From positions 567,200 through 631,199 of the forward strand of contig METB01000001.1 in NCBI GenBank assembly GCA_001771185.1: a stretch of 64,000 nucleotides of DNA, written 5' to 3'. Each line of letters starts with the position of its first letter. Position 1 is the stretch's first letter. The stretch is from a candidate division Kazan bacterium RIFCSPHIGHO2_01_FULL_44_14 (GTDB lineage Bacteria > Patescibacteriota > Kazan-3B-28). The notes under the pieces were generated by a model. The model saw only the letters and a list, made by a program, of their open reading frames with translations. It was not told the DNA's origin and did not search any database. The translations under genes and the position numbers were made by a program. Below are positions 3,356 through 36,875 of the stretch, piece after piece.

Positions 3356-3658
3356 ATGAGTCAGGGTATTAGATTGACCTGTGTGGCGGTACTGGGGTTT
3401 TGTGCCTGGTTTGCATTTGATTATTGGTTGAGTGGTTGGTTACTATCTCGCAATTTACTGCCGGATGTGGTTGGGTTTGTGGTCGGTACGCTGAAGGTTA
3501 TTGTGGGGACGACTGCGGGGTGGTTGGGTCTTAACATGAAAGTACTCGACAAAGTTCCCATCAGGTACCTAATAACTTTAGTGCTATTGATTTGGGGTGC
3601 TGTTCTATGGTTAATATTGCGTAATAATGATAATAAACTACTGGTAAAACCAACTTAA
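3356..3658 (+). CDS. hypothetical small membrane protein
   Basis: 100 aa, 3 TM helices; GGGTATAAT box ending ~7 nt before the ATG (leaderless-type promoter). Confidence 0.5.
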   Translation: MSQGIRLTCVAVLGFCAWFAFDYWLSGWLLSRNLLPDVVGFVVGTLKVIVGTTAGWLGLNMKVLDKVPIRYLITLVLLIWGAVLWLILRNNDNKLLVKPT

Positions 3659-28614: not shown

Positions 28615-31600
28615 ATGACGACCGAAACGGGGGGCCAGCCAGTTGAATTGGCAGGACAAACCACCGTTGAGGCGGTGGCTGAACGAATTCGGGAACTAGA
28701 AGTCGGACCAGTGGTAGAAATTGCTACTGGTGAGATTAGAGATAGCCAGAAATTGGCGTTTGAGTCGCTCGAGAATCAGGATGGGAAAGTGGTTCGTAAT
28801 CCGGAGTATCTCAAGTTCTTAGGAAAACTTGATCAAGAATATGTTGATGAACGACTAGATAAAGAAGGAATGGTGAGGGTAAGGAATGTGGCAGTGATGT
28901 CAATTGATATTGCCGGTTTTTCTAATTTAGCCCAGGAATTTTTACAGGCCTCCTGGGGAGATCAGCGTGGGACCTATGCGGCCAAAAAAGTTGTCGATCA
29001 AATTGCTCCGGTACGCGAAGAAATTTTGAGTTCAGTCCACTTGTTTGGCGGAGAAGTTGATCAATTTTTGGGCGATGGAATGAATGTAATGTTTCGAGGT
29101 GGCACACCGGAAGAAAATGTGGCGCGGTCGGTGCAGGCAGCTGAACTTTTACGAAGCAATATTAAGGAACATTATCAATTTGATATTCGAATCGGGATAG
29201 ATATTGGCGACGTGGAATTAGTGGGATACGGTAGCGAAACCGAAAAACGGGCCGATATGATTGGGTCGGCAGTCCAAGGAGCGGAAAAAGTTCAGTCGCA
29301 GGCCGATGTCAAAGGTGGATACAACGTGACCTTGTCTGAAAAGGCCTATGCTTTAATGGAAGACAGTCAGTTTACGGTTTTGGAAAATGGTGTGTATGCC
29401 CTAGGGGAGATTGGCAAGAACGATTCAGTCAATGTGGCGGATTGGGTAACTGGCTTGAACGAAGAGTCAACCGATTTGGCTCTGGTTGAGAATACGATTA
29501 GGGTAAGGGAAAAGTTCTTGTCGAAATCACGGCGCAAAGAATTACGGAGTGAATTTTTATATGGAACCGAGCCCAGACAAGATGCCAGTCCTGTCAGTAC
29601 GGTCTTTGTCAGGTTGAATGTAGCGAAGATGGATTATCAGGAACTGAATCCGATTATGACCGAAGTGTTTGATATCGCCGGACGGTTGCGGGGTAAAGTG
29701 GATAAGGTCCACAATAACACCGTGATGATTAATTTCATCGCTCATTTGAATGATGTTAACAGTGTGGAGGCGAGTAAATTAGTGGCTGACTATTTAACTG
29801 ATCAACGAGTGGGTTTTGATATGGCAGCCAGTCGGTCTGAAGCGTTGGTATTGGCGGTTGATGGAGTGCGGACGGTCTATGGTGACGGAGTGATTCGAGC
29901 CAGACGGTTATTAGATGTAAATAATCCTGGCAATCGGTTAGTGGTGGACAAAAGCGTGATGGATCGGATGCTAACTCGTAAAGTTTCAGCAGATTCAATT
30001 CCGCCGGTTCGAGTGAAAGGGTTTAGTGAGCCAGTCGAACGGTTTGTGATTACTAAAATTGAACGGTCTTATGAATTGCCCAAGGGTAAACATTTGGCTG
30101 GACGAGAAATAGAGATAAAAGTGTTAGAGGATGACTTTGAGCTGGCTCGTAAAGAAGGACAAAGTCGAATCCTAATTGGTGAACCCGGGATTGGTAAATC
30201 GGCGTTAACGGCCGAGTTCTTGGCGCGCAAACAAAAAGGCGGATTGATGGTAATGGTTGGCCGAGCTGAAGCTAGTACTCAAAAACAGGCCTTCTCGGTA
30301 TGGCGTAACTTGCTGGAAGGCAGTTTGTCATTGAAAGATATGTTGGTCAAAGACAAAGAAGTAGCGATTAAAGAGTTTTATTTGTCTAACTGTCCAGTAT
30401 TATCCGAATCGTTGGCGTTATTGAATCCAATTTTGGGAACCAACTTTGAAGAAGGGGAAAAGGTTAAATATTTAGATGCTGTCGAACGCGATCAGTCCCG
30501 GGCGGAATTTGTGATGGAAACAATTAAATCGCTAACTAGCGTGGGAGTGCCAGCGGCTGTATTGTTGGAAGATTTACATTTCTTTGATCCATCATCAGAA
30601 GCCCTGGCGCGGGAGGTGATGAAGCGGGTCAAGGATTCTGATATTTATATTGTGTTAACTACTTGGCCGAAAGACGATGAACATAAACTGACTTTACCCA
30701 GGAAAGAATTCATGCGGGAGTTGGCTGATGTCAAGACACTCGAATTGGGCGGGTTGCCGGTATTCGGAGGAGATTATGACACAGCCAAAGATACGGTTGA
30801 GTTTGAACAGTGGTGGCAGGCCAATAAAGAGGTCTGGTGGCAGGCGGTAGACGCCTTTTTGGATCTGGACCGAAAAGATTTTGAAAAGAAGGAAATGGGG
30901 TATCGGCGCATTTTTACCAAGCTAGCCGAAAAAACCCAGGGCAACTTCTTGTATTTGGGTAACGCTATTTTCTACTTGGCTATTTATCAAGGGGAACGAC
31001 GATATTTTGAGGAAGACCAGAATACTAAACTGTATTCTTTGTGTGAACGAATCCAGGATGAGCAATTTGCCAACATTCCCAGTACCGAGTCGATTATCCA
31101 GTATCGGTTGGGGATGTTAGACATTGAGATCAAAAACTTGGCCCAAGATGCATCGGTGGTTGGGCTAGTGTTTACTTCAGAAGTTGTGTCGCTAATTAGT
31201 GGTGTGCCGATCGATCGCGTCAGGAGTAGTTTTGCATATGCCGAACAGAAGGGCTTCACGAAAGAACTGGGTGGAGGACAATGGATGTTTGTTCATGGCG
31301 CCATTCAAAATGCGGTGTATAACTCGATAGCGGATCTTAGACGGCGGCAGTTGAAGCATCGTGAGTTGGCCCAATACTTTGAAAAAACATCGCCAGATGA
31401 TTTGCCGCTGTTGGTGCGTCATTATCGTAATAGTGATGATTACTTGAAAGCAATGAAGTATTTGGATCAGTATGCTGAACGGCTGAAGGAGCAGGTGTTG
31501 TGGGGGCCGGCGCTCGATCAGATTCATTATGCTAGTAAGATTTTTGATAAAGTCCATGAACGGGGTTGGAAGATTGTAGACATCGGCTCGACTACTTACA

Positions 31601-32859
31601 AGGGTGAGTCGATTCAGTTGGATTTGGAACAAATTGAGAAATTGGTGCACGAAGAAATCGATCGGGCAATGGCGGCACTAATGTTGCAGCGGAAGATCGG
31701 GGACCGGAACAAGACCCTGCCCATTATCGAGCGGGCGCAGGATTTGTTTAACGACTTTCATGGGCGAGGTAATGTTGAGAGTTTGCCAATACACGACAGA
31801 TTGGCTTGGATTAGGTTATTAGCCAATGAGGGGGCAGAAAGAGCCACTGCTGAGGACAAAAACAATGCACTGACAATTTTTAAAGAAGCCTTTTCTTTGG
31901 CCAGAGATTTGGACTGTGATAGCTTTAATAAAACCGAATTAAAGGGAATGAGCAGAGAGGCGTTATTCGATTTATATCTGGCATACGGTGATGCTTTGCA
32001 TGAGATGAGCGATTTTGAAGCATCAATTGCTAGTACAAAAAAAGCAAAAAGCATAGCAATAAGTTTACAAAATCAAATTATCACTTCGAACCAGATTATT
32101 ATTTGTTATAAGGGTATGGGCGAGATGCAACTAGCGAAACAGGGGTACCAGGAAACGATATCGTTAGCAGAAAAGAATAATTTAAAAGGAGAGTTGCCGA
32201 CATTGTATTCCAACTTTGCCGAGTTTTATGCGAGTGCTGGTAAGGCAGAGTTGGCAGAGACCTACTATGATAAAGCATATGAAGCTGCTAGAATAATTGG
32301 CCAGACAGCAACTATGGCAAAGGCACGAGGAAGTATGGCTTTTATCAAGCGGAATAAGGGAGAGTACGCTGACGCACTACACTTATTTATTAATGCCAGA
32401 GACGATTTTGCTCGGAGGGGACAAGTGGCGCGAGCTATAAATGCTACCGCTGAAGCGGCTTTTTGTGCAGTGCAAATAAGTTTGTTCGAACAGGCAGAAA
32501 TGTTATTGAAAGAAGTTGCGGCTAGCAATACCAAGTTTAAGGGGAGGGGTCTCACTCTCCACGCACTTAGCGATTTGATTAAAAATGGGACGAAGAATAG
32601 AGAGCTCATAAAAATAAAATTTGAGCAAGGAGCAGAGCAGTTGCTTCAAGATAAAAATAAGAGTGATTTTGCTTTTGATTGTCTCTACTTTGGCGAAGCT
32701 TTGCTTGAGAGAGGGTTTAATGAAGGGATGGAGTATGTATTGAATGCGAAAAGAATTTATGAGGAGATTGGTGAGTTGGCTCAGATGCCGAGAATTGAGA
32801 AAATTCTTGCCCGATATGGAAAGAATATCAACCAGAGGCAAGAGCCAGTTGTTGGGTAG
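28615..32859 (+). CDS. multidomain signalling protein: class III nucleotide cyclase domain, degenerate second cyclase-like domain, STAND/AAA P-loop NTPase and TPR repeats
   Basis: Cyclase motifs VAVMSIDIAGFSNL and FGGEVDQFLGDGMNVMF (metal-binding Asp pair); second domain lacks the first Asp; Walker A ILIGEPGIGKSALT and Walker B-like LLEDLHFFD; C-terminal 500 aa is TPR-like. The architecture resembles mycobacterial cyclase-ATPase-TPR proteins but has no HTH. Confidence 0.7.
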   Translation: MTTETGGQPVELAGQTTVEAVAERIRELEVGPVVEIATGEIRDSQKLAFESLENQDGKVVRNPEYLKFLGKLDQEYVDERLDKEGMVRVRNVAVMSIDIAGFSNLAQEFLQASWGDQRGTYAAKKVVDQIAPVREEILSSVHLFGGEVDQFLGDGMNVMFRGGTPEENVARSVQAAELLRSNIKEHYQFDIRIGIDIGDVELVGYGSETEKRADMIGSAVQGAEKVQSQADVKGGYNVTLSEKAYALMEDSQFTVLENGVYALGEIGKNDSVNVADWVTGLNEESTDLALVENTIRVREKFLSKSRRKELRSEFLYGTEPRQDASPVSTVFVRLNVAKMDYQELNPIMTEVFDIAGRLRGKVDKVHNNTVMINFIAHLNDVNSVEASKLVADYLTDQRVGFDMAASRSEALVLAVDGVRTVYGDGVIRARRLLDVNNPGNRLVVDKSVMDRMLTRKVSADSIPPVRVKGFSEPVERFVITKIERSYELPKGKHLAGREIEIKVLEDDFELARKEGQSRILIGEPGIGKSALTAEFLARKQKGGLMVMVGRAEASTQKQAFSVWRNLLEGSLSLKDMLVKDKEVAIKEFYLSNCPVLSESLALLNPILGTNFEEGEKVKYLDAVERDQSRAEFVMETIKSLTSVGVPAAVLLEDLHFFDPSSEALAREVMKRVKDSDIYIVLTTWPKDDEHKLTLPRKEFMRELADVKTLELGGLPVFGGDYDTAKDTVEFEQWWQANKEVWWQAVDAFLDLDRKDFEKKEMGYRRIFTKLAEKTQGNFLYLGNAIFYLAIYQGERRYFEEDQNTKLYSLCERIQDEQFANIPSTESIIQYRLGMLDIEIKNLAQDASVVGLVFTSEVVSLISGVPIDRVRSSFAYAEQKGFTKELGGGQWMFVHGAIQNAVYNSIADLRRRQLKHRELAQYFEKTSPDDLPLLVRHYRNSDDYLKAMKYLDQYAERLKEQVLWGPALDQIHYASKIFDKVHERGWKIVDIGSTTYKGESIQLDLEQIEKLVHEEIDRAMAALMLQRKIGDRNKTLPIIERAQDLFNDFHGRGNVESLPIHDRLAWIRLLANEGAERATAEDKNNALTIFKEAFSLARDLDCDSFNKTELKGMSREALFDLYLAYGDALHEMSDFEASIASTKKAKSIAISLQNQIITSNQIIICYKGMGEMQLAKQGYQETISLAEKNNLKGELPTLYSNFAEFYASAGKAELAETYYDKAYEAARIIGQTATMAKARGSMAFIKRNKGEYADALHLFINARDDFARRGQVARAINATAEAAFCAVQISLFEQAEMLLKEVAASNTKFKGRGLTLHALSDLIKNGTKNRELIKIKFEQGAEQLLQDKNKSDFAFDCLYFGEALLERGFNEGMEYVLNAKRIYEEIGELAQMPRIEKILARYGKNINQRQEPVVG

Positions 32860-32902: not shown

Positions 32903-33808
32903 GTGAAAAGTCCCAGTAGAAGCGAATGCCCTTTTGTTACTATAGGAAGAAAGTTTTTAGGGTACACTGAAGGTATGAAAGTCAGGGTAGTTGCCGACAA
33001 ACGGATATTTTGTCTCTATGTGGCGCTGAATGCGATGGTTTATGGTGGGGGAAATGCCGGAGTGGTGTACTCGGTTCGTCAGCGGGTATGGGAATGGTTC
33101 GGTCAACAGAATTTGACTCTGGAACCACTGAAACAATTTTTCGCCAAGTACCCGGAGGGAAATTACTATCGTTTTCGCGATTGGGCTTTGAGTCACGGTG
33201 AACCGCCGGAGTTTAGCGAGATTAATGATTTTTGGAGACGAAACAATCCGAAGGAGCTGGACGGCTTCGCGGAGTTGCTACGCGATTTTTGGGTACAGAC
33301 CAATTTAGAACAATTGTGGCGGGATTTAAGTGAGGACTATCTTGCTGTGGTGGGGGAGACACAAATTAATGGAGAGATAGCTGCCAAGCAGGTACAGAAG
33401 TATTTGAGAATGAAAGATATGGGTATTGATGAGTTAGTAATAGTGCCTAATTTGTTGGAAAATTATAATACTGGTTTTGGTCCCAAGCTAGGTAGGGTTG
33501 CCTACGCTATATTAGGCCCGTCAGAAAACGGTTTTTCAGTGTCGAGGATTAGTCATGAACTACTACATTCGATTATCAATCCTCTAACAGAAGATTATGA
33601 TAAGGCCAAGCGCTCGAGTTTGCGTGAATACATTATTCGTGCGATGGTCCTGCGAATGAATCCAGATCAATCCAGACACCAAGAGTTAATCATAGAAACC
33701 TACCCGCAACTCGATCAGTTCTGGGGTAAATTACGGGATTTTGAAGCAGATGGCCAGCCCTTTGATGAATATTTGCGAACTTGGTTGCCAACTATCCGAC
33801 TTGATTAA
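32903..33808 (+). CDS. hypothetical protein with HExxH motif (putative metallopeptidase); start may be the internal Met at 32966
   Basis: Motif VSRISHELLHSIINP; sits immediately upstream of the radical-SAM/SPASM gene. Confidence 0.45.
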   Translation: MKSPSRSECPFVTIGRKFLGYTEGMKVRVVADKRIFCLYVALNAMVYGGGNAGVVYSVRQRVWEWFGQQNLTLEPLKQFFAKYPEGNYYRFRDWALSHGEPPEFSEINDFWRRNNPKELDGFAELLRDFWVQTNLEQLWRDLSEDYLAVVGETQINGEIAAKQVQKYLRMKDMGIDELVIVPNLLENYNTGFGPKLGRVAYAILGPSENGFSVSRISHELLHSIINPLTEDYDKAKRSSLREYIIRAMVLRMNPDQSRHQELIIETYPQLDQFWGKLRDFEADGQPFDEYLRTWLPTIRLD

Positions 33809-33877
33809 TCCGCACCAGTGGCATATAATTCCAGTAGTACTTTGAAATTACAATCTCTGTGATAAGGAGGTGGGCTT

Positions 33878-35128
33878 TTGATTGAGCTGATGTCAGCTAA
33901 ACTGATATGCGACACTATCGTCGTCAGTGACACCGACGGTGTATATCTGTATGCCCAAGCTACGAAGCGAGTGGCCCGGGTAAGTAAAATGAGCAAGACC
34001 GTCAGGAGCAACCTTGCAAACAGAGGGTTCTTTAATACGGTTCCACGATCAATGTGGCATCGTCGCCCGAAAAGGTGGCGAAGCTTAATGCTACTACTGA
34101 CCAAGAGTTGTCCGTTGGCCTGCGAGTACTGTTACGCGCATGGTGGCGAAAACGATGGAATGATGAGTCCAGAGACAGCTGATAGGGCAGTGGCGGCATA
34201 CATGGAGACCAAGCCAGTCAACCCTAAAGTAACTTTCTTTGGGGCGGGGGAGCCGACGCTTAACGTTCAAGCGATTAAGCATGTGGTGGAGAAATATGGC
34301 TCTCGGATTCGCTGGTCCATTACGACTTCCGGTGTGATGCCGGAATCATTTCTGCAGTGGCTAATTGACCACGATGTTGGTGTAACGGTATCGATGGATG
34401 GACCGCCACATATTCAAAATCGCCTACGACCATTACGCAACGGGGGTGCTTCAGCGTCCATCGTTGAGCGGACTATTAGAACTTTAGCAGAAGTCCCTGG
34501 CAGAACTGTGGCAGTACGCGCGACAGTAACCCATGAGACCCTTCAAGAAATCAATCAGGTACTAGTTTATTTCCAAGATTTAGGAATAACAACGGTCCAT
34601 CTTGAGGGAATGTACTCGTTGGGTCGAGCCCTCGACCAGCGAGAGAATGCCTTAAATCCGCTCGATTTTTCCGAAATGCTCCAGATGGTACAGGCGGGTT
34701 TGGATTGGGCGCGTTCAACCGGCAGACGGCTCAAGATTGGAGGGCTAACCTATCTGCTTACTCCGCGTATTGGTTACTATTGTGGCCCAATGTCAGGACA
34801 AACGATGGTTGTTAACTGTTTGGGCCAACTTACGGCTTGCAGTGAAGTGAGCGACGATCAAATTTCAGAATGGGAGCACTTTGGGTTGGGCTATATTGAT
34901 GGTAAGGGTCGGATTCTGGTCAATGAAGAGCGGCTGAATGACTATCAACACCGCGTTGTTAGTCGCATGGTCCCATGCCGTCAATGCTTTGCTCGTTATA
35001 TCTGTCGAGGAGGATGTGCTCACAAGGCGTGGGTTGCGACTGGTGATATCTATGTCCCGAATCCCCAACACTGCCGATTCGTTCGGGCTATTGTACCTTT
35101 TTTGATTAGGCGCATGGCCGAGCGGTAG
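33878..35128 (+). CDS. radical SAM enzyme with C-terminal SPASM domain (peptide-modifying maturase-like)
   Basis: rSAM cluster motif CPLACEYCYAHGG (Cx3Cx2C); SPASM-type Cys-rich C-terminus CRQCFARYICRGGCAHKAW...HCRF; ~85-aa N-terminal extension could be an RRE. Confidence 0.8.
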   Translation: MIELMSAKLICDTIVVSDTDGVYLYAQATKRVARVSKMSKTVRSNLANRGFFNTVPRSMWHRRPKRWRSLMLLLTKSCPLACEYCYAHGGENDGMMSPETADRAVAAYMETKPVNPKVTFFGAGEPTLNVQAIKHVVEKYGSRIRWSITTSGVMPESFLQWLIDHDVGVTVSMDGPPHIQNRLRPLRNGGASASIVERTIRTLAEVPGRTVAVRATVTHETLQEINQVLVYFQDLGITTVHLEGMYSLGRALDQRENALNPLDFSEMLQMVQAGLDWARSTGRRLKIGGLTYLLTPRIGYYCGPMSGQTMVVNCLGQLTACSEVSDDQISEWEHFGLGYIDGKGRILVNEERLNDYQHRVVSRMVPCRQCFARYICRGGCAHKAWVATGDIYVPNPQHCRFVRAIVPFLIRRMAER

Positions 35129-35165
35129 CTCACGAATAGGAAAATCTAGTTATGGAGGTAACACG

Positions 35166-35288
35166 GTGACAAACGAGATTGTAGTATCTGATGCTACAAT
35201 GCCTGAACTCTCAACTGGCGAATCGTCAGCTGGGTGTCCGGCCGACGTTAGCTGCGGTGACGACTGCAGTTGCACGGATGACAAGTAA
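35166..35288 (+). CDS. 40-aa Cys/Asp-rich putative RiPP precursor peptide (GTG start; not in the ORF track)
   Basis: GGAGG RBS 7 nt upstream of GTG; translation MTNEIVVSDATMPELSTGESSAGCPADVSCGDDCSCTDDK; followed by an intrinsic terminator; 37 nt downstream of the rSAM/SPASM gene. Confidence 0.55.
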   Translation: MTNEIVVSDATMPELSTGESSAGCPADVSCGDDCSCTDDK

Positions 35289-35311
35289 TCTGAACTTCGT
35301 CATCGCGATGA

Positions 35312-35345
35312 TGTGCCCCGGCTATAATATGCCGGGGCTTTTTTA
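35312..35345 (+). terminator. intrinsic terminator after the precursor-peptide gene
   Basis: ccccggc-tataatat-gccgggg hairpin followed by cttttttat. Confidence 0.65.
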
Positions 35346-35365: not shown

Positions 35366-35590
35366 TTATCGTAAACTGTCGGAGCTGAAACTTTCACCCA
35401 TAATAGCTGAGGTAGGCGAGATTGTGATTGTACTTTTAGCTAGAGAATAGCCGAATAAGATTCCAAGCATAAGCACCATAGCTAGTACTACAACTAACTC
35501 AATTTCTACTAACTTTGCTGTGATGTGAGAAGATTTAATAAGCATATTATAGAGAAGGTCACAGATTCTTATCTTCACCGAATCCTTCAC
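35366..35590 (-). CDS. small membrane protein sharing an N-terminal TM motif with the upstream Big_2 protein
   Basis: 74 aa; segment VEIELVVVLAMVLMLGILFGYSLA parallels LEASLAVLVVLGAIFGYSLAS of the 438-aa protein. Confidence 0.4.
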   Translation of the reverse strand: MKDSVKIRICDLLYNMLIKSSHITAKLVEIELVVVLAMVLMLGILFGYSLAKSTITISPTSAIMGESFSSDSLR

Positions 35591-36875
35591 CCATCACCCC
35601 AGTACTTGCATCAGTACCTTTGTTGCCGATTATGAGTTGGGAGATAAAGTTGGCAACGGTCTTAACTACATTGGTTTCGCTAGCAGGGCTAAACATTGCC
35701 TGAATGTCTCTCTTGAACTGTTCCCAGTTAAGAGAAACTCTCATAGCCAACTTTTGTGTAGTTGTGGTAGCCGTCTCGGCGATGATTTGGTTAACAGCGG
35801 TTTGTGAGACAAGGGTTGAACCGGTTTCGGTTATTTGCTTTGTTTGGGCTACGGCGAAGGCATCCAAGGCGGTAGCAACCATTGTTTTGGTTTCTGTTAC
35901 TGAACCGTCAGTACTAGGCGCAGTCAAAGCGTCGGCAACTGTATCGAGAGCGGTGTTCCCTTCGCTGGCACCTGGGTAGGTGGCTGATTCCTCCGCGCCG
36001 AGGTATTTGTCAGTAGTAGTATCGGTTGAAGGGATATTAACAATCTTGGATGGGACAGTAGCGACTGTCTCGCGGACAGTAATGGTCGCAGTTGCGCTAG
36101 CACCATTGGCGGTGGCTTTAACTTTTACTGTACCTGCTTGAACACCAGTCAATTCGCCAGTGGCTGAATTGATGGTGGCGCGTTCTTTCGAAATTTCGTC
36201 AGCGAAACTCCATGTGATTTGCAAATCAGAAATACTGTTGCCGGTGGCATCTAAGGCGACAGCGGAGAAGTCACGGGTTTGGCCAACGGTAAGTGAAGCA
36301 ATGCTGGGCAGAACGTAAAGTGTGGATACCGGTGGTGTGATTGGCTTAACGGTGTCTCCACTAGATGAACCAGGAGTAAGGGTAATACTTTTAATAGTGC
36401 TACCACCAGCAAAGGTCATTACGATAACATCTACACTATTTAGGGCGATGGCTCCTTGAGGGGTGCTTACCGAAGTGTCGCCTATTGTTACTCTGTCGTA
36501 GCCACCTTGGACATAAACAACTCCGGTGAATGGTTCGGTTAATGGTTGTACGAAAGTATAGTTAGCGCCTGAAGTTTGGCCAACTATACCATTAAGGCCT
36601 TGTGAGACATTGCCCGGAGTAGTGTTGGCAGAAGTAGCGCGGACCCGGTATTGGCCACTTAAGTTCTGATTGGTGAAGTTAATCCCACTATAGATTCGAC
36701 TATTAATAGAGAATGAAGTAGTGGTTCCGGCAATCTGAATATCGCCGGCAACTAGTTCAGTGCTGGCGAGTGAATATCCAAAAATGGCTCCTAGCACAAC
36801 AAGTACGGCTAGGGAGGCCTCTAATTCTTTTTCGACCAGCCCCCAAAATTTATGGAAAACGGTGCTCTTTTTCAT
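35559..36875 (-). CDS. cell-surface protein with bacterial Ig-like (Big_2) domain
   Basis: 438 aa; N-terminal TM anchor; Big_2-like segment LTVGQTRDFSAVALDATGNSISDLQITWSF...GTVKVKATANGASATATITV; Thr/Ala-rich C-terminal region. Confidence 0.6.
   Translation of the reverse strand: MKKSTVFHKFWGLVEKELEASLAVLVVLGAIFGYSLASTELVAGDIQIAGTTTSFSINSRIYSGINFTNQNLSGQYRVRATSANTTPGNVSQGLNGIVGQTSGANYTFVQPLTEPFTGVVYVQGGYDRVTIGDTSVSTPQGAIALNSVDVIVMTFAGGSTIKSITLTPGSSSGDTVKPITPPVSTLYVLPSIASLTVGQTRDFSAVALDATGNSISDLQITWSFADEISKERATINSATGELTGVQAGTVKVKATANGASATATITVRETVATVPSKIVNIPSTDTTTDKYLGAEESATYPGASEGNTALDTVADALTAPSTDGSVTETKTMVATALDAFAVAQTKQITETGSTLVSQTAVNQIIAETATTTTQKLAMRVSLNWEQFKRDIQAMFSPASETNVVKTVANFISQLIIGNKGTDASTGVMGEGFGEDKNL

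What the first reader, a model, noticed from the sequence alone, without database searches (positions are those of the whole stretch)
32903..35345. Unannotated 40-aa Cys/Asp-rich peptide gene downstream of a radical-SAM/SPASM enzyme and an HExxH protein: candidate novel RiPP (ranthipeptide/SCIFF-like) locus
A short ORF sits 37 nt after the rSAM/SPASM gene, with a GGAGG RBS 7 nt before a GTG. It encodes MTNEIVVSDATMPELSTGESSAGCPADVSCGDDCSCTDDK. Its C-terminal core is made almost only of Cys, Asp, Ser, Gly and Thr, and a strong intrinsic terminator follows it.

The upstream enzyme has the canonical Cx3Cx2C rSAM cluster and a SPASM auxiliary-cluster domain. It also has an ~85-aa N-terminal extension that could be a precursor-recognition (RRE) domain. 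An IVVSD motif occurs in both the peptide leader and this enzyme N-terminus.

A 301-aa protein with an HELLH motif lies directly upstream and could be the leader peptidase. The architecture of rSAM/SPASM, Cys-rich peptide and peptidase is that of thioether-crosslinked RiPPs (sactipeptides, ranthipeptides, SCIFF), where Cys-S is linked to Asp/Ser/Thr carbons. This peptide sequence does not match the known SCIFF consensus, so it may be a new class. Operon linkage and the RiPP assignment are inference.
Basis: partly seen in the sequence, partly recalled or inferred. Interest (0 to 1): 0.85.

Follow-up and report, generated by a model that had tools for sequence, protein, structure and literature searches.

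The report
Radical-SAM modified peptide locus, CPR bacteria
A real 40-residue peptide gene, missing from the NCBI and UniProt records of this genome, sits next to a radical-SAM enzyme and a zinc-protease-like protein in an ultra-small "Kazan" (CPR) bacterium, and because the set recurs in many related genomes it is very likely a new family of enzymatically cross-linked peptide in organisms thought to make almost no such products.

Summary
The ORF at 35166..35288 (GTG start, GGAGG 7 nt upstream, 37 nt after the rSAM stop, strong terminator at 35315-35338) is a real gene.

- **Conservation.** All rSAM homologues of at least 32% identity that keep the N-terminal domain and have enough downstream DNA carry a small Cys/Asp-rich ORF just downstream on the same strand. 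The 13-codon core has pN/pS of about 0.04.
- **Core.** It is a tandem array of C-x-x-D units; Asp sits at +3 of 72% of Cys against 25% in shuffles.
- **Enzyme.** It has CX3CX2C and the seven-Cys SPASM motif. Its best solved relative is CteB. Its best HMMs are the Nif11-type maturase, PapB, QhpD and SCIFF, all far below cut-off.

Most likely this is a ranthipeptide-like RiPP, with Cys-to-Asp thioether rings made by the rSAM and the leader removed by the zincin. The chemistry is inferred, not shown. It belongs to no curated family: a new family of a known kind, mostly in Patescibacteria. A canonical RRE is not supported. Interest is moderate.

The parts
32903..33808 (+). DUF4932-like HExxH zincin, the candidate leader peptidase. 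The ORF is 301 aa from the GTG at 32903. The likely true start is the ATG at 32975 (277 aa). HELLH lies at 33554-33568. The third metal ligand would be Glu218 in 277-aa numbering.
33801..33829 (+). Promoter-like site (TTGATT-17-TATAAT) between the zincin gene and the rSAM gene.
   Evidence: Consensus scan only, 10 of 12 matches. It is not evidence of function.
33866..33872 (+). Shine-Dalgarno sequence GGAGGTG of the rSAM gene.
   Evidence: Read from the sequence.
33878..35128 (+). Radical-SAM/SPASM peptide maturase, 416 aa. The N-terminal beta domain is residues 1-66 (33878-34075). CX3CX2C lies at 34109-34132. The seven SPASM cysteines span 34781-35074.
   Evidence: Pfam Radical_SAM E 7e-14. 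NCBIfam best hits are the Nif11-type maturase, PapB, QhpD and SCIFF maturase, all below cut-off. Best PDB sequence hit is CteB 5wgg, E 2e-15. AF2 pLDDT is 92.5. Foldseek best hit is CteB, TM 0.75. Cys residues are invariant in 31 homologues.
35154..35158 (+). Shine-Dalgarno sequence GGAGG of the peptide gene.
   Evidence: In 20 of 22 loci an SD-like purine-rich motif, usually (A)AGGAGG, lies in the 25 nt before the peptide start codon.
35166..35234 (+). Leader region of the precursor, residues 1-23 (MTNEIVVSDATMPELSTGESSAG).
   Evidence: The leader motif D-I-x-I-V-D-A-x-L-x-E-L is conserved across the family, with L15 invariant and A10 nearly so. Two tandem precursors in L101/L102 share the leader but differ in core.
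35235..35288 (+). Core region of the precursor, residues 24-40 (CPADVSCGDDCSCTDDK), plus the stop codon. It has three C-x-x-D units (C24/D27, C30/D33, C36/D39) plus the invariant C34.
   Evidence: C24, C30, G31 and C34 are invariant and D33 is nearly invariant. Asp sits at +3 of 195 of 270 Cys against 25% in shuffles, z = 18. pN/pS is 0.04.
35315..35344 (+). Intrinsic terminator: an 8-bp GC stem, an 8-nt loop and TTTTTT.
   Evidence: z = -5.65.

Best explanation
This is a compact RiPP (ribosomally synthesised, post-translationally modified peptide) locus in a candidate division Kazan (CPR/Patescibacteria) genome.

The 40-aa product of 35166..35288 is a precursor with two parts. The first is an N-terminal leader with a strand-like (D)IxIVDA segment followed by LxEL. 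The second is a 17-residue acidic core built from C-x-x-D units.

The rSAM/SPASM enzyme encoded immediately upstream would work in these steps.
1. It binds the leader, probably on its small N-terminal beta domain.
2. [quoted passage not shown]
3. It joins that carbon to the Cys sulfur. This gives three (possibly four) small thioether rings. The chemistry would resemble that of PapB, QhpD and CteB, that is, ranthipeptide-type.
4. The DUF4932-like HExxH...E zincin then removes or trims the leader.

Shown here: the gene is real and under purifying selection. The rSAM-peptide pairing is conserved, and peptidases recur beside it. The enzyme belongs to the SPASM peptide-maturase group closest to thioether formers. 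The third protein has a zincin fold.

Inferred: the type and position of the cross-links, the role of the N-terminal domain, the peptidase activity and cleavage site, co-transcription, and the biological role.

Rough probabilities are 0.85 for an rSAM-modified peptide precursor, 0.5 for Cys-to-Asp non-alpha thioethers, and 0.6 for the zincin acting as a peptidase on this peptide.
For: **Gene reality and linkage.**
- Every distinct locus with an rSAM of at least 32% identity that keeps the N-terminal domain and has enough downstream DNA carries a small Cys/Asp-rich ORF on the same strand. In two of these loci (L010, L110) the core is divergent.
- The peptide gene starts -4 to 51 nt after the rSAM stop. 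An SD-like motif, usually (A)AGGAGG, precedes the start in 20 of 22 loci.
- Core pN is 0.039 against pS of about 1.
- 53 protein clusters of this peptide family were found in a 5.8-billion-protein database. None carries a functional name.
- The leader is conserved while the core varies. This includes two tandem precursors with the same leader in L101/L102.

**Chemistry.**
- Top NCBIfam hits are the Nif11-type peptide maturase (134 bits), PapB (129), QhpD (120) and the SCIFF maturase (103).
- The best solved relative is CteB by sequence (E 2e-15) and by fold (TM 0.75).
- Seven invariant SPASM Cys.
- C-x-x-D enrichment has z = 18.
- PapB makes Cys-S to Asp-C-beta links in six CX3D motifs and accepts spacings of 0-6 (PMC9413430).

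**Peptidase.**
- HExxH plus a Glu 20 residues later is invariant.
- The fold is gluzincin.
- The family co-occurs in about 8 distinct loci in two orientations.
- Other loci encode S41, M16 or Peptidase_MA_2-like proteins next to the rSAM-peptide pair.
- Remote relatives are fused to PDZ, S41 or TPR domains.
Against: - There are no experimental data of any kind, and cross-link chemistry cannot be read from sequence.
- The enzyme fails every curated equivalog cut-off. Pfam's SPASM and PqqD/RRE models do not score.
- The N-terminal domain is not a canonical RRE.
- The invariant Cys34 is not part of a conserved C-x-x-D unit. Some units are C-x-x-H, and some cores end at ...CGQDC.
- No exporter or immunity gene is conserved in the neighbourhood.
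- DUF4932 has no demonstrated activity, and HExxH proteins in RiPP clusters can be hydroxylases.
- Operon structure was not tested. A promoter-like site lies between the zincin and rSAM genes.
Confidence: 0.6

Rival explanations
1. The pair is an rSAM-modified RiPP, but the chemistry differs from Cys-to-Asp non-alpha thioethers. Alternatives are sactionine (Cys-S to C-alpha) bridges, links to Ser/Thr/Gly, C-C or ether cross-links, epimerisation, or Cys oxidation.
For: The enzyme is roughly equidistant from many SPASM maturases with different chemistries. Cyclophane formers (AmcB, YhhB), DarW/DynA and CefB also score at E 1e-13 to 1e-22. It reaches no curated cut-off. Gly31 and Cys34 are as invariant as the Asp.
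Against: Three of the four best HMMs, and the best solved structure, are Cys-thioether formers acting on Asp, Glu or Thr side chains. The only strongly periodic feature of the core is Cys with Asp at +3. The core contains almost no aromatic residues, so cyclophane chemistry is unlikely (composition).
Confidence: 0.25
2. The 301-aa HExxH protein is not a peptidase. It would be an Fe(II)/alpha-ketoglutarate-dependent HExxH oxygenase that beta-hydroxylates Asp (or His) residues of the core, as ChlH does next to the rSAM ChlB.
Against: - No NCBIfam model matched the protein at E <= 1, or 40 remote relatives at E <= 0.001.
- The relatives are DUF4932 proteins, often fused to PDZ, S41 or TPR domains, which is a protease-like context.
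- Sister loci encode bona fide S41, M16 or MA-clan peptidases beside the pair.
- By inference, an O2-dependent enzyme fits poorly with a presumed anaerobic CPR organism.
Confidence: 0.15
3. The peptide is not an exported natural product. It would be the precursor of a small cofactor or metal chelator (PQQ- or mycofactocin-like logic), or a small Cys4 metal-binding protein that the rSAM matures.
For: The four Cys and many Asp could bind metals. M16 peptidases as in PQQ systems occur in 4 loci. No transporter is conserved nearby. CPR genomes are minimal, so a conserved housekeeping role would explain retention.
Against: The whole 17-30 residue core, not one or two residues, is conserved. It is built from repeated units whose number varies from 3 to 5, as in cross-linked RiPPs. 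Tandem precursors with different cores are typical of RiPP diversification rather than of a cofactor. The family is patchily distributed, with dozens of clusters among billions of proteins.
Confidence: 0.08
4. The rSAM is a non-RiPP enzyme (an anaerobic sulfatase maturase or QhpD of quinohemoprotein amine dehydrogenase) and the short ORF is a chance ORF.
For: anSME is the second-best structural match (TM 0.67). QhpD is the third-best HMM.
Against: - The anSME model scores 65.8 bits against a cut-off of 349, and QhpD scores 119.7 against 453.
- No sulfatase or qhpA/B/C gene is among the ORFs called around the pair in the window or in 16 related loci.
- The ORF is conserved with pN/pS 0.04 and an SD-like motif upstream in 20 of 22 loci.
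Confidence: 0.02

Closest known systems
PapB/PapA (freyrasin), a ranthipeptide system
   Same: An rSAM/SPASM maturase acts on a leader-plus-core precursor whose core is a tandem array of Cys-Xn-Asp units. PapB links Cys-S to Asp-C-beta (PMC9413430). PapB is the second-best HMM hit and aligns over the whole profile, positions 3-330 of 330.
   Different: The score is 128.9 bits against a cut-off of 340, so this is not an equivalog. The spacing here is C-X2-D in 3-5 units, against six C-X3-D. The leader is unrelated. The N-terminal domain is shorter. The taxon differs (CPR against Paenibacillus; the latter is from my own knowledge).
CteB/CteA (SCIFF, thermocellin)
   Same: This is the closest solved structure by sequence and fold. 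It has the same three-domain order: N-terminal peptide-binding domain, rSAM barrel, SPASM. The Cys-rich precursor gene lies next to the enzyme.
   Different: The peptide gives no hit to the SCIFF precursor model, and the enzyme scores 102.8 bits against a cut-off of 425. The region before the rSAM core is about 30 residues shorter here: query residue 67 aligns to CteB residue 96. It has one helix.
QhpD/QhpC
   Same: An rSAM/SPASM enzyme forming Cys-Asp/Glu thioethers (my own knowledge). It is the third-best HMM hit.
   Different: The score is 119.7 bits against a cut-off of 453. There are no qhpA/B genes. The substrate here is a free-standing 40-aa peptide with a leader.
Gluzincin metallopeptidases (M1 aminopeptidases, thermolysin) and Pfam DUF4932
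   Different: There is no detectable sequence similarity to any solved peptidase. The window protein itself scores below the DUF4932 threshold, 20.4-20.7 bits against 28.7. It is a single domain of about 277 aa with no GxMEN-type motif identified. Activity is untested.
Alpha-KG-dependent HExxH hydroxylases (ChlH, PflC, PesO)
   Same: An HExxH protein with a zincin-like fold encoded beside an rSAM enzyme and an Asp-containing RiPP core.
   Different: No family-level sequence match was found. The structural score is lower than to true peptidases.

Membership tests
Radical SAM / SPASM peptide-maturase superfamily | CX3CX2C cluster motif in a Radical_SAM domain | tested here: met
   C78-x3-C82-x2-C85 is invariant in 31 homologues. 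PF04055 E 7e-14.
Radical SAM / SPASM peptide-maturase superfamily | C-terminal SPASM seven-Cys motif CX9-15GX4C...CX2CX5CX3C...C | tested here: met
   C302-x13-G316-x4-C321, C367-x2-C370-x5-C376-x3-C380 and C399 are all invariant. The full-length fold matches CteB and anSME. Pfam PF13186 itself did not score.
Radical SAM / SPASM peptide-maturase superfamily | N-terminal RiPP recognition element (PqqD-like, three strands plus three helices) | tested here: inconclusive
   The AF2 model shows four strands (6-10, 13-18, 21-26, 31-35) and one helix (40-47). No PqqD/RRE model hit at E <= 1. The region is conserved in the family.
Ranthipeptides (non-alpha-carbon thioether RiPPs) | Thioether between Cys sulfur and a beta or gamma carbon of the acceptor residue | not testable with these tools
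   This needs MS/NMR of the modified peptide. Only indirect support exists: C-x-x-D periodicity and the nearest enzymes.
Ranthipeptides (non-alpha-carbon thioether RiPPs) | Cys-rich precursor gene adjacent to an rSAM/SPASM maturase, with a conserved leader | tested here: met
SCIFF (TIGR03973 precursor / TIGR03974 maturase) | Precursor matches the six-Cys-in-45 model; maturase reaches the equivalog cut-off | tested here: not met
   The peptide matched 0 NCBIfam families at E <= 1. The maturase scores 102.8 bits against a cut-off of 425.
PapB family (NF047865) | Equivalog score; CX3D/E motifs in the precursor | tested here: not met
   128.9 bits against a cut-off of 340. The dominant spacing is CX2D: 72% at +3 against 14% at +4.
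Nif11-like peptide rSAM maturase (TIGR04064) | Equivalog score; precursor with a Nif11-type leader | tested here: not met
   134.3 bits against a cut-off of 518.7. The peptide has no Nif11/NHLP hit.
QhpD (TIGR03906) | Equivalog score; qhpA/B/C neighbours | tested here: not met
   119.7 bits against a cut-off of 453. No such gene is among the ORFs called around the pair.
Anaerobic sulfatase-maturating enzyme (TIGR03942) | Equivalog score; sulfatase substrate gene with a C/S-x-P/A-x-R motif | tested here: not met
   65.8 bits against a cut-off of 349.45. No sulfatase gene lies nearby. The peptide lacks CxPxR.
Gluzincin metallopeptidase (301-aa protein) | HExxH plus a downstream Glu as third ligand, on a zincin fold | tested here: met
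Gluzincin metallopeptidase (301-aa protein) | Zn-dependent peptide-bond hydrolysis | not testable with these tools
   This needs an enzyme assay.
Pfam DUF4932 (PF16286) | Score at or above the gathering threshold | tested here: inconclusive
   The window protein scores 20.4-20.7 bits against 28.7. However, 28 of 40 remote relatives found with its family profile hit PF16286, the best at E 5.5e-16. UniProt labels the protein as DUF4932 domain-containing.
Alpha-KG-dependent HExxH hydroxylases (IPR026337) | Sequence membership of the family | tested here: not met

The most novel reading that the evidence does not exclude
This would be the founding example of a Patescibacteria-centred RiPP family. 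It spans Kazan, Saccharibacteria, Brennerbacteria, Wolfebacteria, Paceibacterota and Azambacteria. Its product would be a very acidic peptide stapled by consecutive four-residue Cys-X2-Asp thioether micro-rings, a topology not described for natural ranthipeptides. The enzyme would recognise its leader through a reduced, non-RRE beta domain. The product would be matured by a previously uncharacterised zincin family (DUF4932), giving that domain its first function. Because these episymbionts carry almost no biosynthetic clusters, the peptide could act in host attachment or signalling, or in metal handling.
Probability: 0.3. Interest if true: 0.7.

Novelty: new member of a known kind. Interest (0 to 1): 0.55.

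Why it matters
CPR/Patescibacteria have genomes of about 0.7-1 Mb and are usually reported to lack biosynthetic gene clusters. One survey states that its Patescibacteria MAGs contained none (PMC11613949).

A peptide-modification system retained across several CPR lineages is therefore likely to matter for their lifestyle. It is compact, with three genes in about 2.4 kb, so it is directly testable by heterologous expression.

It would add a natural C-X2-D substrate family to thioether-forming rSAM enzymes, which is of interest for peptide stapling. It would also suggest a function for DUF4932.

Finally, it shows that the precursor gene and the enzyme's N-terminal domain are missing from the public annotation of this genome.

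Tried and rejected
1. Pfam and NCBIfam searches of the peptide gave no hit at E <= 1. It is not SCIFF, Nif11/NHLP, CefA or any other curated precursor.
2. A sequence search and a profile search of the 301-aa family against PDB sequences gave only noise, E > 0.2. The fold search was needed instead.
3. An hhalign comparison of the 273-aa HExxH protein of L120 with the 301-aa family matched only the 28 residues around HExxH, probability 5.7%. They are not demonstrably homologous.
4. Literature searches for rSAM RiPPs or ranthipeptides in CPR, Patescibacteria or Saccharibacteria found only generic BGC surveys and no description of this family. The SPASM-plus-CPR search was uninformative.
5. The Nat. 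Chem. 2024 alpha-KG-HExxH paper is not held, so the active-site residues that distinguish hydroxylases could not be compared.
6. The afdb50 fold library was unavailable.
7. A second CGDDC in the window, at 3502, lies out of frame inside a membrane-protein ORF and is judged chance.
8. Rfam and tRNA scans found nothing in the region.
9. The upstream 1414-aa cyclase/AAA/TPR protein and the downstream Big_2 surface protein are not conserved with the system, so they are not counted as parts.
10. The IVVSD match was tested as enzyme-leader co-variation. The signal is weak (2.14 against 1.71 identities, p = 0.003) and confounded by phylogeny, so no conclusion was drawn.
Full report
**Observation**

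The region reads exactly as described. A 40-codon ORF at 35166..35288 on the + strand starts with GTG. A GGAGG lies at 35154-35158, seven bases upstream. The ORF begins 37 nt after the stop of a 416-aa radical-SAM gene (33878..35128).

It encodes MTNEIVVSDATMPELSTGESSAGCPADVSCGDDCSCTDDK. An 8-bp all-GC hairpin at 35315-35338 followed by TTTTTT comes next. Its fold energy is -27.6 kcal/mol with z = -5.65, and no shuffle out of 200 folds as well.

A 301-aa ORF (32903..33808) with HELLH at 33554-33568 lies upstream. Its real start is probably the ATG at 32975, for two reasons: homologue matches begin at residues 21-27, and the NCBI model is 277 aa. A promoter-like TTGATT-17-TATAAT lies between that gene and the rSAM gene. 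It is a consensus match only.

**Organism and annotation**

Exact look-ups of SecD, RecJ and HisS from the window identify the source as candidate division Kazan bacterium RIFCSPHIGHO2_01_FULL_44_14 / RIFCSPLOWO2_01_FULL_45_19. These are CPR genomes with a 700-kb contig.

In NCBI the rSAM is a "hypothetical protein" of 321 aa, so the model lacks the N-terminal domain. The HExxH protein is also "hypothetical" there, and UniProt calls it DUF4932 domain-containing. The peptide appears only in ENA gene calls and has no NCBI or UniProt accession.

**Is the small ORF a gene?**

Yes.
- The rSAM has about 33 close homologues at 38-76% identity. All come from metagenomes, and the named ones are CPR.
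- I fetched 160 related loci from genomes and metagenomes.
- A tblastn search with the 40-aa peptide finds it directly downstream of the rSAM gene, on the same strand, in more than 20 distinct loci.
- All loci with an rSAM of at least 32% identity that keeps the N-terminal domain and has enough downstream DNA carry a small Cys/Asp-rich ORF there. Two of them (L010, L110) have divergent cores.
- The peptide gene starts -4 to 51 nt after the rSAM stop. In 20 of 22 loci an SD-like motif, usually (A)AGGAGG, precedes the start.
- Across nine loci the 13-codon core has saturated synonymous differences (pS about 1) but pN = 0.039, a ratio of 0.04. This is strong purifying selection in this frame.
- A profile of 22 peptides retrieves 53 clusters of 37-82-aa proteins from 5.8 billion sequences. 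None carries a functional name.

**Anatomy of the peptide family**

- The N-terminal half is a conserved leader of the form M-x-D-I-x-I-V-D-A-x-L-x-E-L, with L15 invariant and A10 nearly so. A variable Ser/Ala/Gly/Thr linker follows.
- The window's EIVVSDATMPEL fits this motif.
- The core contains 24% Asp, 22% Cys and 15% Gly, and almost no aromatic or aliphatic residues.
- C24, C30, G31 and C34 are invariant, and D33 is nearly so.
- The core is periodic. Asp occupies position +3 after 195 of 270 cysteines (72%), against 25% in composition-preserving shuffles (z = 18). Positions +1, +4 and +6 are depleted. The sequences are related, so the z-score overstates independence. The motif nevertheless recurs 3-5 times within each peptide.
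- In the window the units are C24-P-A-D27, C30-G-D-D33 and C36-T-D-D39.
- Longer cores simply add units, for example CPGDDCNDDTGGCLPADSSCGQDCSCPSD.
- L101/L102 carry two tandem precursors with the same leader and different cores. A conserved leader with a variable core is the classic RiPP pattern.

**The enzyme**

- It has CX3CX2C (C78, C82, C85) and the canonical seven-Cys SPASM pattern, all invariant in 31 homologues.
- Pfam scores Radical_SAM and Fer4_12 but not its SPASM model.
- NCBIfam places it nearest the Nif11-type peptide maturase (134 bits), PapB (129), QhpD (120) and the SCIFF maturase (103). These lie far below their cut-offs of 340-519 bits. The anaerobic sulfatase maturase scores only 66 bits against a cut-off of 349.
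- The closest solved protein is the thioether-forming CteB, at E 2e-15 by sequence. It is also closest by fold, at TM 0.75 using an AF2 model with pLDDT 92.5.
- The enzyme is therefore a SPASM peptide maturase that belongs to no curated family and sits closest to Cys-thioether formers.
- The first 66 residues or so are conserved in the family. They are predicted to form four beta strands and one helix.
- This region is about 30 residues shorter than the corresponding region of CteB, since query residue 67 aligns to CteB residue 96. It is not the three-strand, three-helix RRE, and no PqqD model hits it.
- A peptide-binding role for this region is plausible but inferred.

**The IVVSD coincidence**

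The identical pentapeptide is real. Family-wide, the enzyme strand reads D-[ST]-[IL]-[IV]-[VF]-x-D and the leader reads D-[IL]-x-[IV]-[VI]-[DK]-A.

Cognate enzyme-leader pairs share slightly more positions than non-cognate pairs: 2.14 against 1.71 of 11, permutation p = 0.003. This is confounded by phylogeny. I leave it as an unexplained resemblance between two strand-like segments.

**The HExxH protein**

- Its close family has 10 members at 41-66% identity. H194, E195 and H198 are invariant, as is E218 twenty residues later, which is a gluzincin signature.
- A profile search of 1.84 billion representatives finds 572 relatives.
- Of 40 relatives sampled, 28 hit Pfam DUF4932. Several are fused to PDZ, S41 or TPR domains. 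The four metal-site residues remain nearly invariant.
- There is no sequence similarity to any solved structure.
- The protein co-occurs with the rSAM-peptide pair in about eight distinct loci. It lies upstream on the same strand in some and downstream on the opposite strand in others. That pattern argues for functional linkage rather than inherited gene order.
- In loci that lack it, other peptidases are encoded next to the pair. These are a 232-aa Peptidase_MA_2-like HExxH protein (six distinct loci), an S41 peptidase (six) and an M16 peptidase (four). Such non-orthologous replacement supports a leader-peptidase role.

**Rival for the HExxH protein**

Recent work shows that some HExxH proteins in RiPP clusters, including one fused to the rSAM ChlB, are Fe/alpha-KG-dependent beta-hydroxylases. 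They act on Asp, His, Gln or Pro and have a zincin-like fold (PMC12636437; PMC13060819).

**Mechanism proposed**

The precursor is translated from the same transcript as the rSAM; this is inferred from the 37-nt gap and the single terminator.
1. The leader docks on the enzyme, possibly on the N-terminal sheet.
2. SAM cleavage yields the 5'-deoxyadenosyl radical.
3. The radical abstracts hydrogen from the Asp three residues after each Cys.
4. The carbon radical is captured by the Cys sulfur, which may be held on an auxiliary cluster. I know this mechanism from CteB, and it was not tested here.

This would give three or four small thioether rings. PapB does the same on six CX3D motifs and tolerates spacings of 0-6 (PMC9413430). 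The zincin would then remove the leader. Each of these chemical steps is inference.

**What it is not**

It is not SCIFF, PapB/freyrasin, QhpD, a Nif11-type system or an anSME. The membership tests for each failed, and no sulfatase or qhp gene is among the ORFs called around the pair. It works like a ranthipeptide system but belongs to no defined family.

**Novelty and interest**

I found no description of this family in the searchable literature and no curated model for the peptide or the enzyme.

It is a new family of a known kind, the rSAM/SPASM-modified Cys-rich RiPPs. It has three notable features: C-X2-D repeats, a reduced N-terminal domain, and a DUF4932 zincin partner. It is also concentrated in genome-reduced CPR bacteria, which are usually reported to lack BGCs (PMC11613949).

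Its score is too high, because new rSAM RiPP families are found regularly and nothing here is mechanistically unprecedented. I score interest at 0.55.

Noticed in passing
window 28615..32859 (+): A 1414-aa protein with adenylate/guanylate cyclase, AAA_16 (STAND-type ATPase) and TPR domains ends 43 nt before the 301-aa ORF. No terminator-like site lies between them. It has a weak hit to TIGR03903 "TOMM system kinase/cyclase fusion protein" (49.7 bits, cut-off 705). It may be a regulator of the locus, but it is found only in contigs of the same strain.
   Followed up: partly
L101 5254-5562 and L102 4910-5218: Two tandem precursor genes follow one rSAM gene. They share nearly the same leader (MDDIRIVDA-x-LEELSS) but have different cores (...CTNDVEDDPCPGDFCNNDN and ...CPCGDNAEVGCGDDCTCNDQD).
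   Followed up: partly
L099 127-6381: A second, unrelated rSAM/SPASM gene (477 aa, with a PF13186 hit), an M16 peptidase and an S41 peptidase surround the rSAM-peptide pair. This may be a larger or a double RiPP cluster.
   Followed up: partly
L033/L156 4972-, L034 3435-, L042 1554-, L037 1057-: More distant rSAM homologues (27-29% identity) occur in Dojkabacteria, Saccharibacteria and Microgenomates MAGs. They are followed by a different Cys/Asp-rich peptide (...CNPECYGDCQDDCDCYCESYCTDDDDWD). Non-CPR loci (L029, L071, L154, L163) also have Cys/Asp-rich ORFs downstream. This suggests a wider superfamily.
   Followed up: no
L018 3437-3859: Upstream of a 27%-identical rSAM in a Saccharibacteria MAG lies an ORF made of His/Gly/Asn/Ser/Cys repeats (HGNHGSCHGNHGSHGNHGSC...). 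It is reminiscent of His-Xaa-Ser repeat precursors.
   Followed up: no
window 33878..34162 and 35166..35288: The public NCBI gene model of the rSAM (OGB73781.1, 321 aa) omits the conserved N-terminal domain. The precursor peptide has no NCBI or UniProt entry.
   Followed up: yes
window 33917-33931 and 35178-35192: The pentapeptide IVVSD occurs both in the enzyme's second predicted beta strand and in the peptide leader. Family-wide the two motifs resemble each other weakly. The meaning is unknown.
   Followed up: partly
L120 4565-5386, L121 5609-6430, L102 6660-7400: A further 246-273-aa protein family with an HELLH motif (no Pfam hit) lies next to the Peptidase_MA_2-like gene in L120 and L121. 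Its similarity to the 301-aa family is confined to the motif.
   Followed up: partly
window 35559..36875 (-): A convergent 438-aa protein with an N-terminal hydrophobic segment and a Big_2 domain, probably a surface protein. It is not conserved with the system.
   Followed up: no
window 3424..3534 (+): A second CGDDC string occurs in a 36-aa ORF that overlaps, out of frame, a 100-aa membrane-protein ORF. It is judged a chance match.
   Followed up: yes
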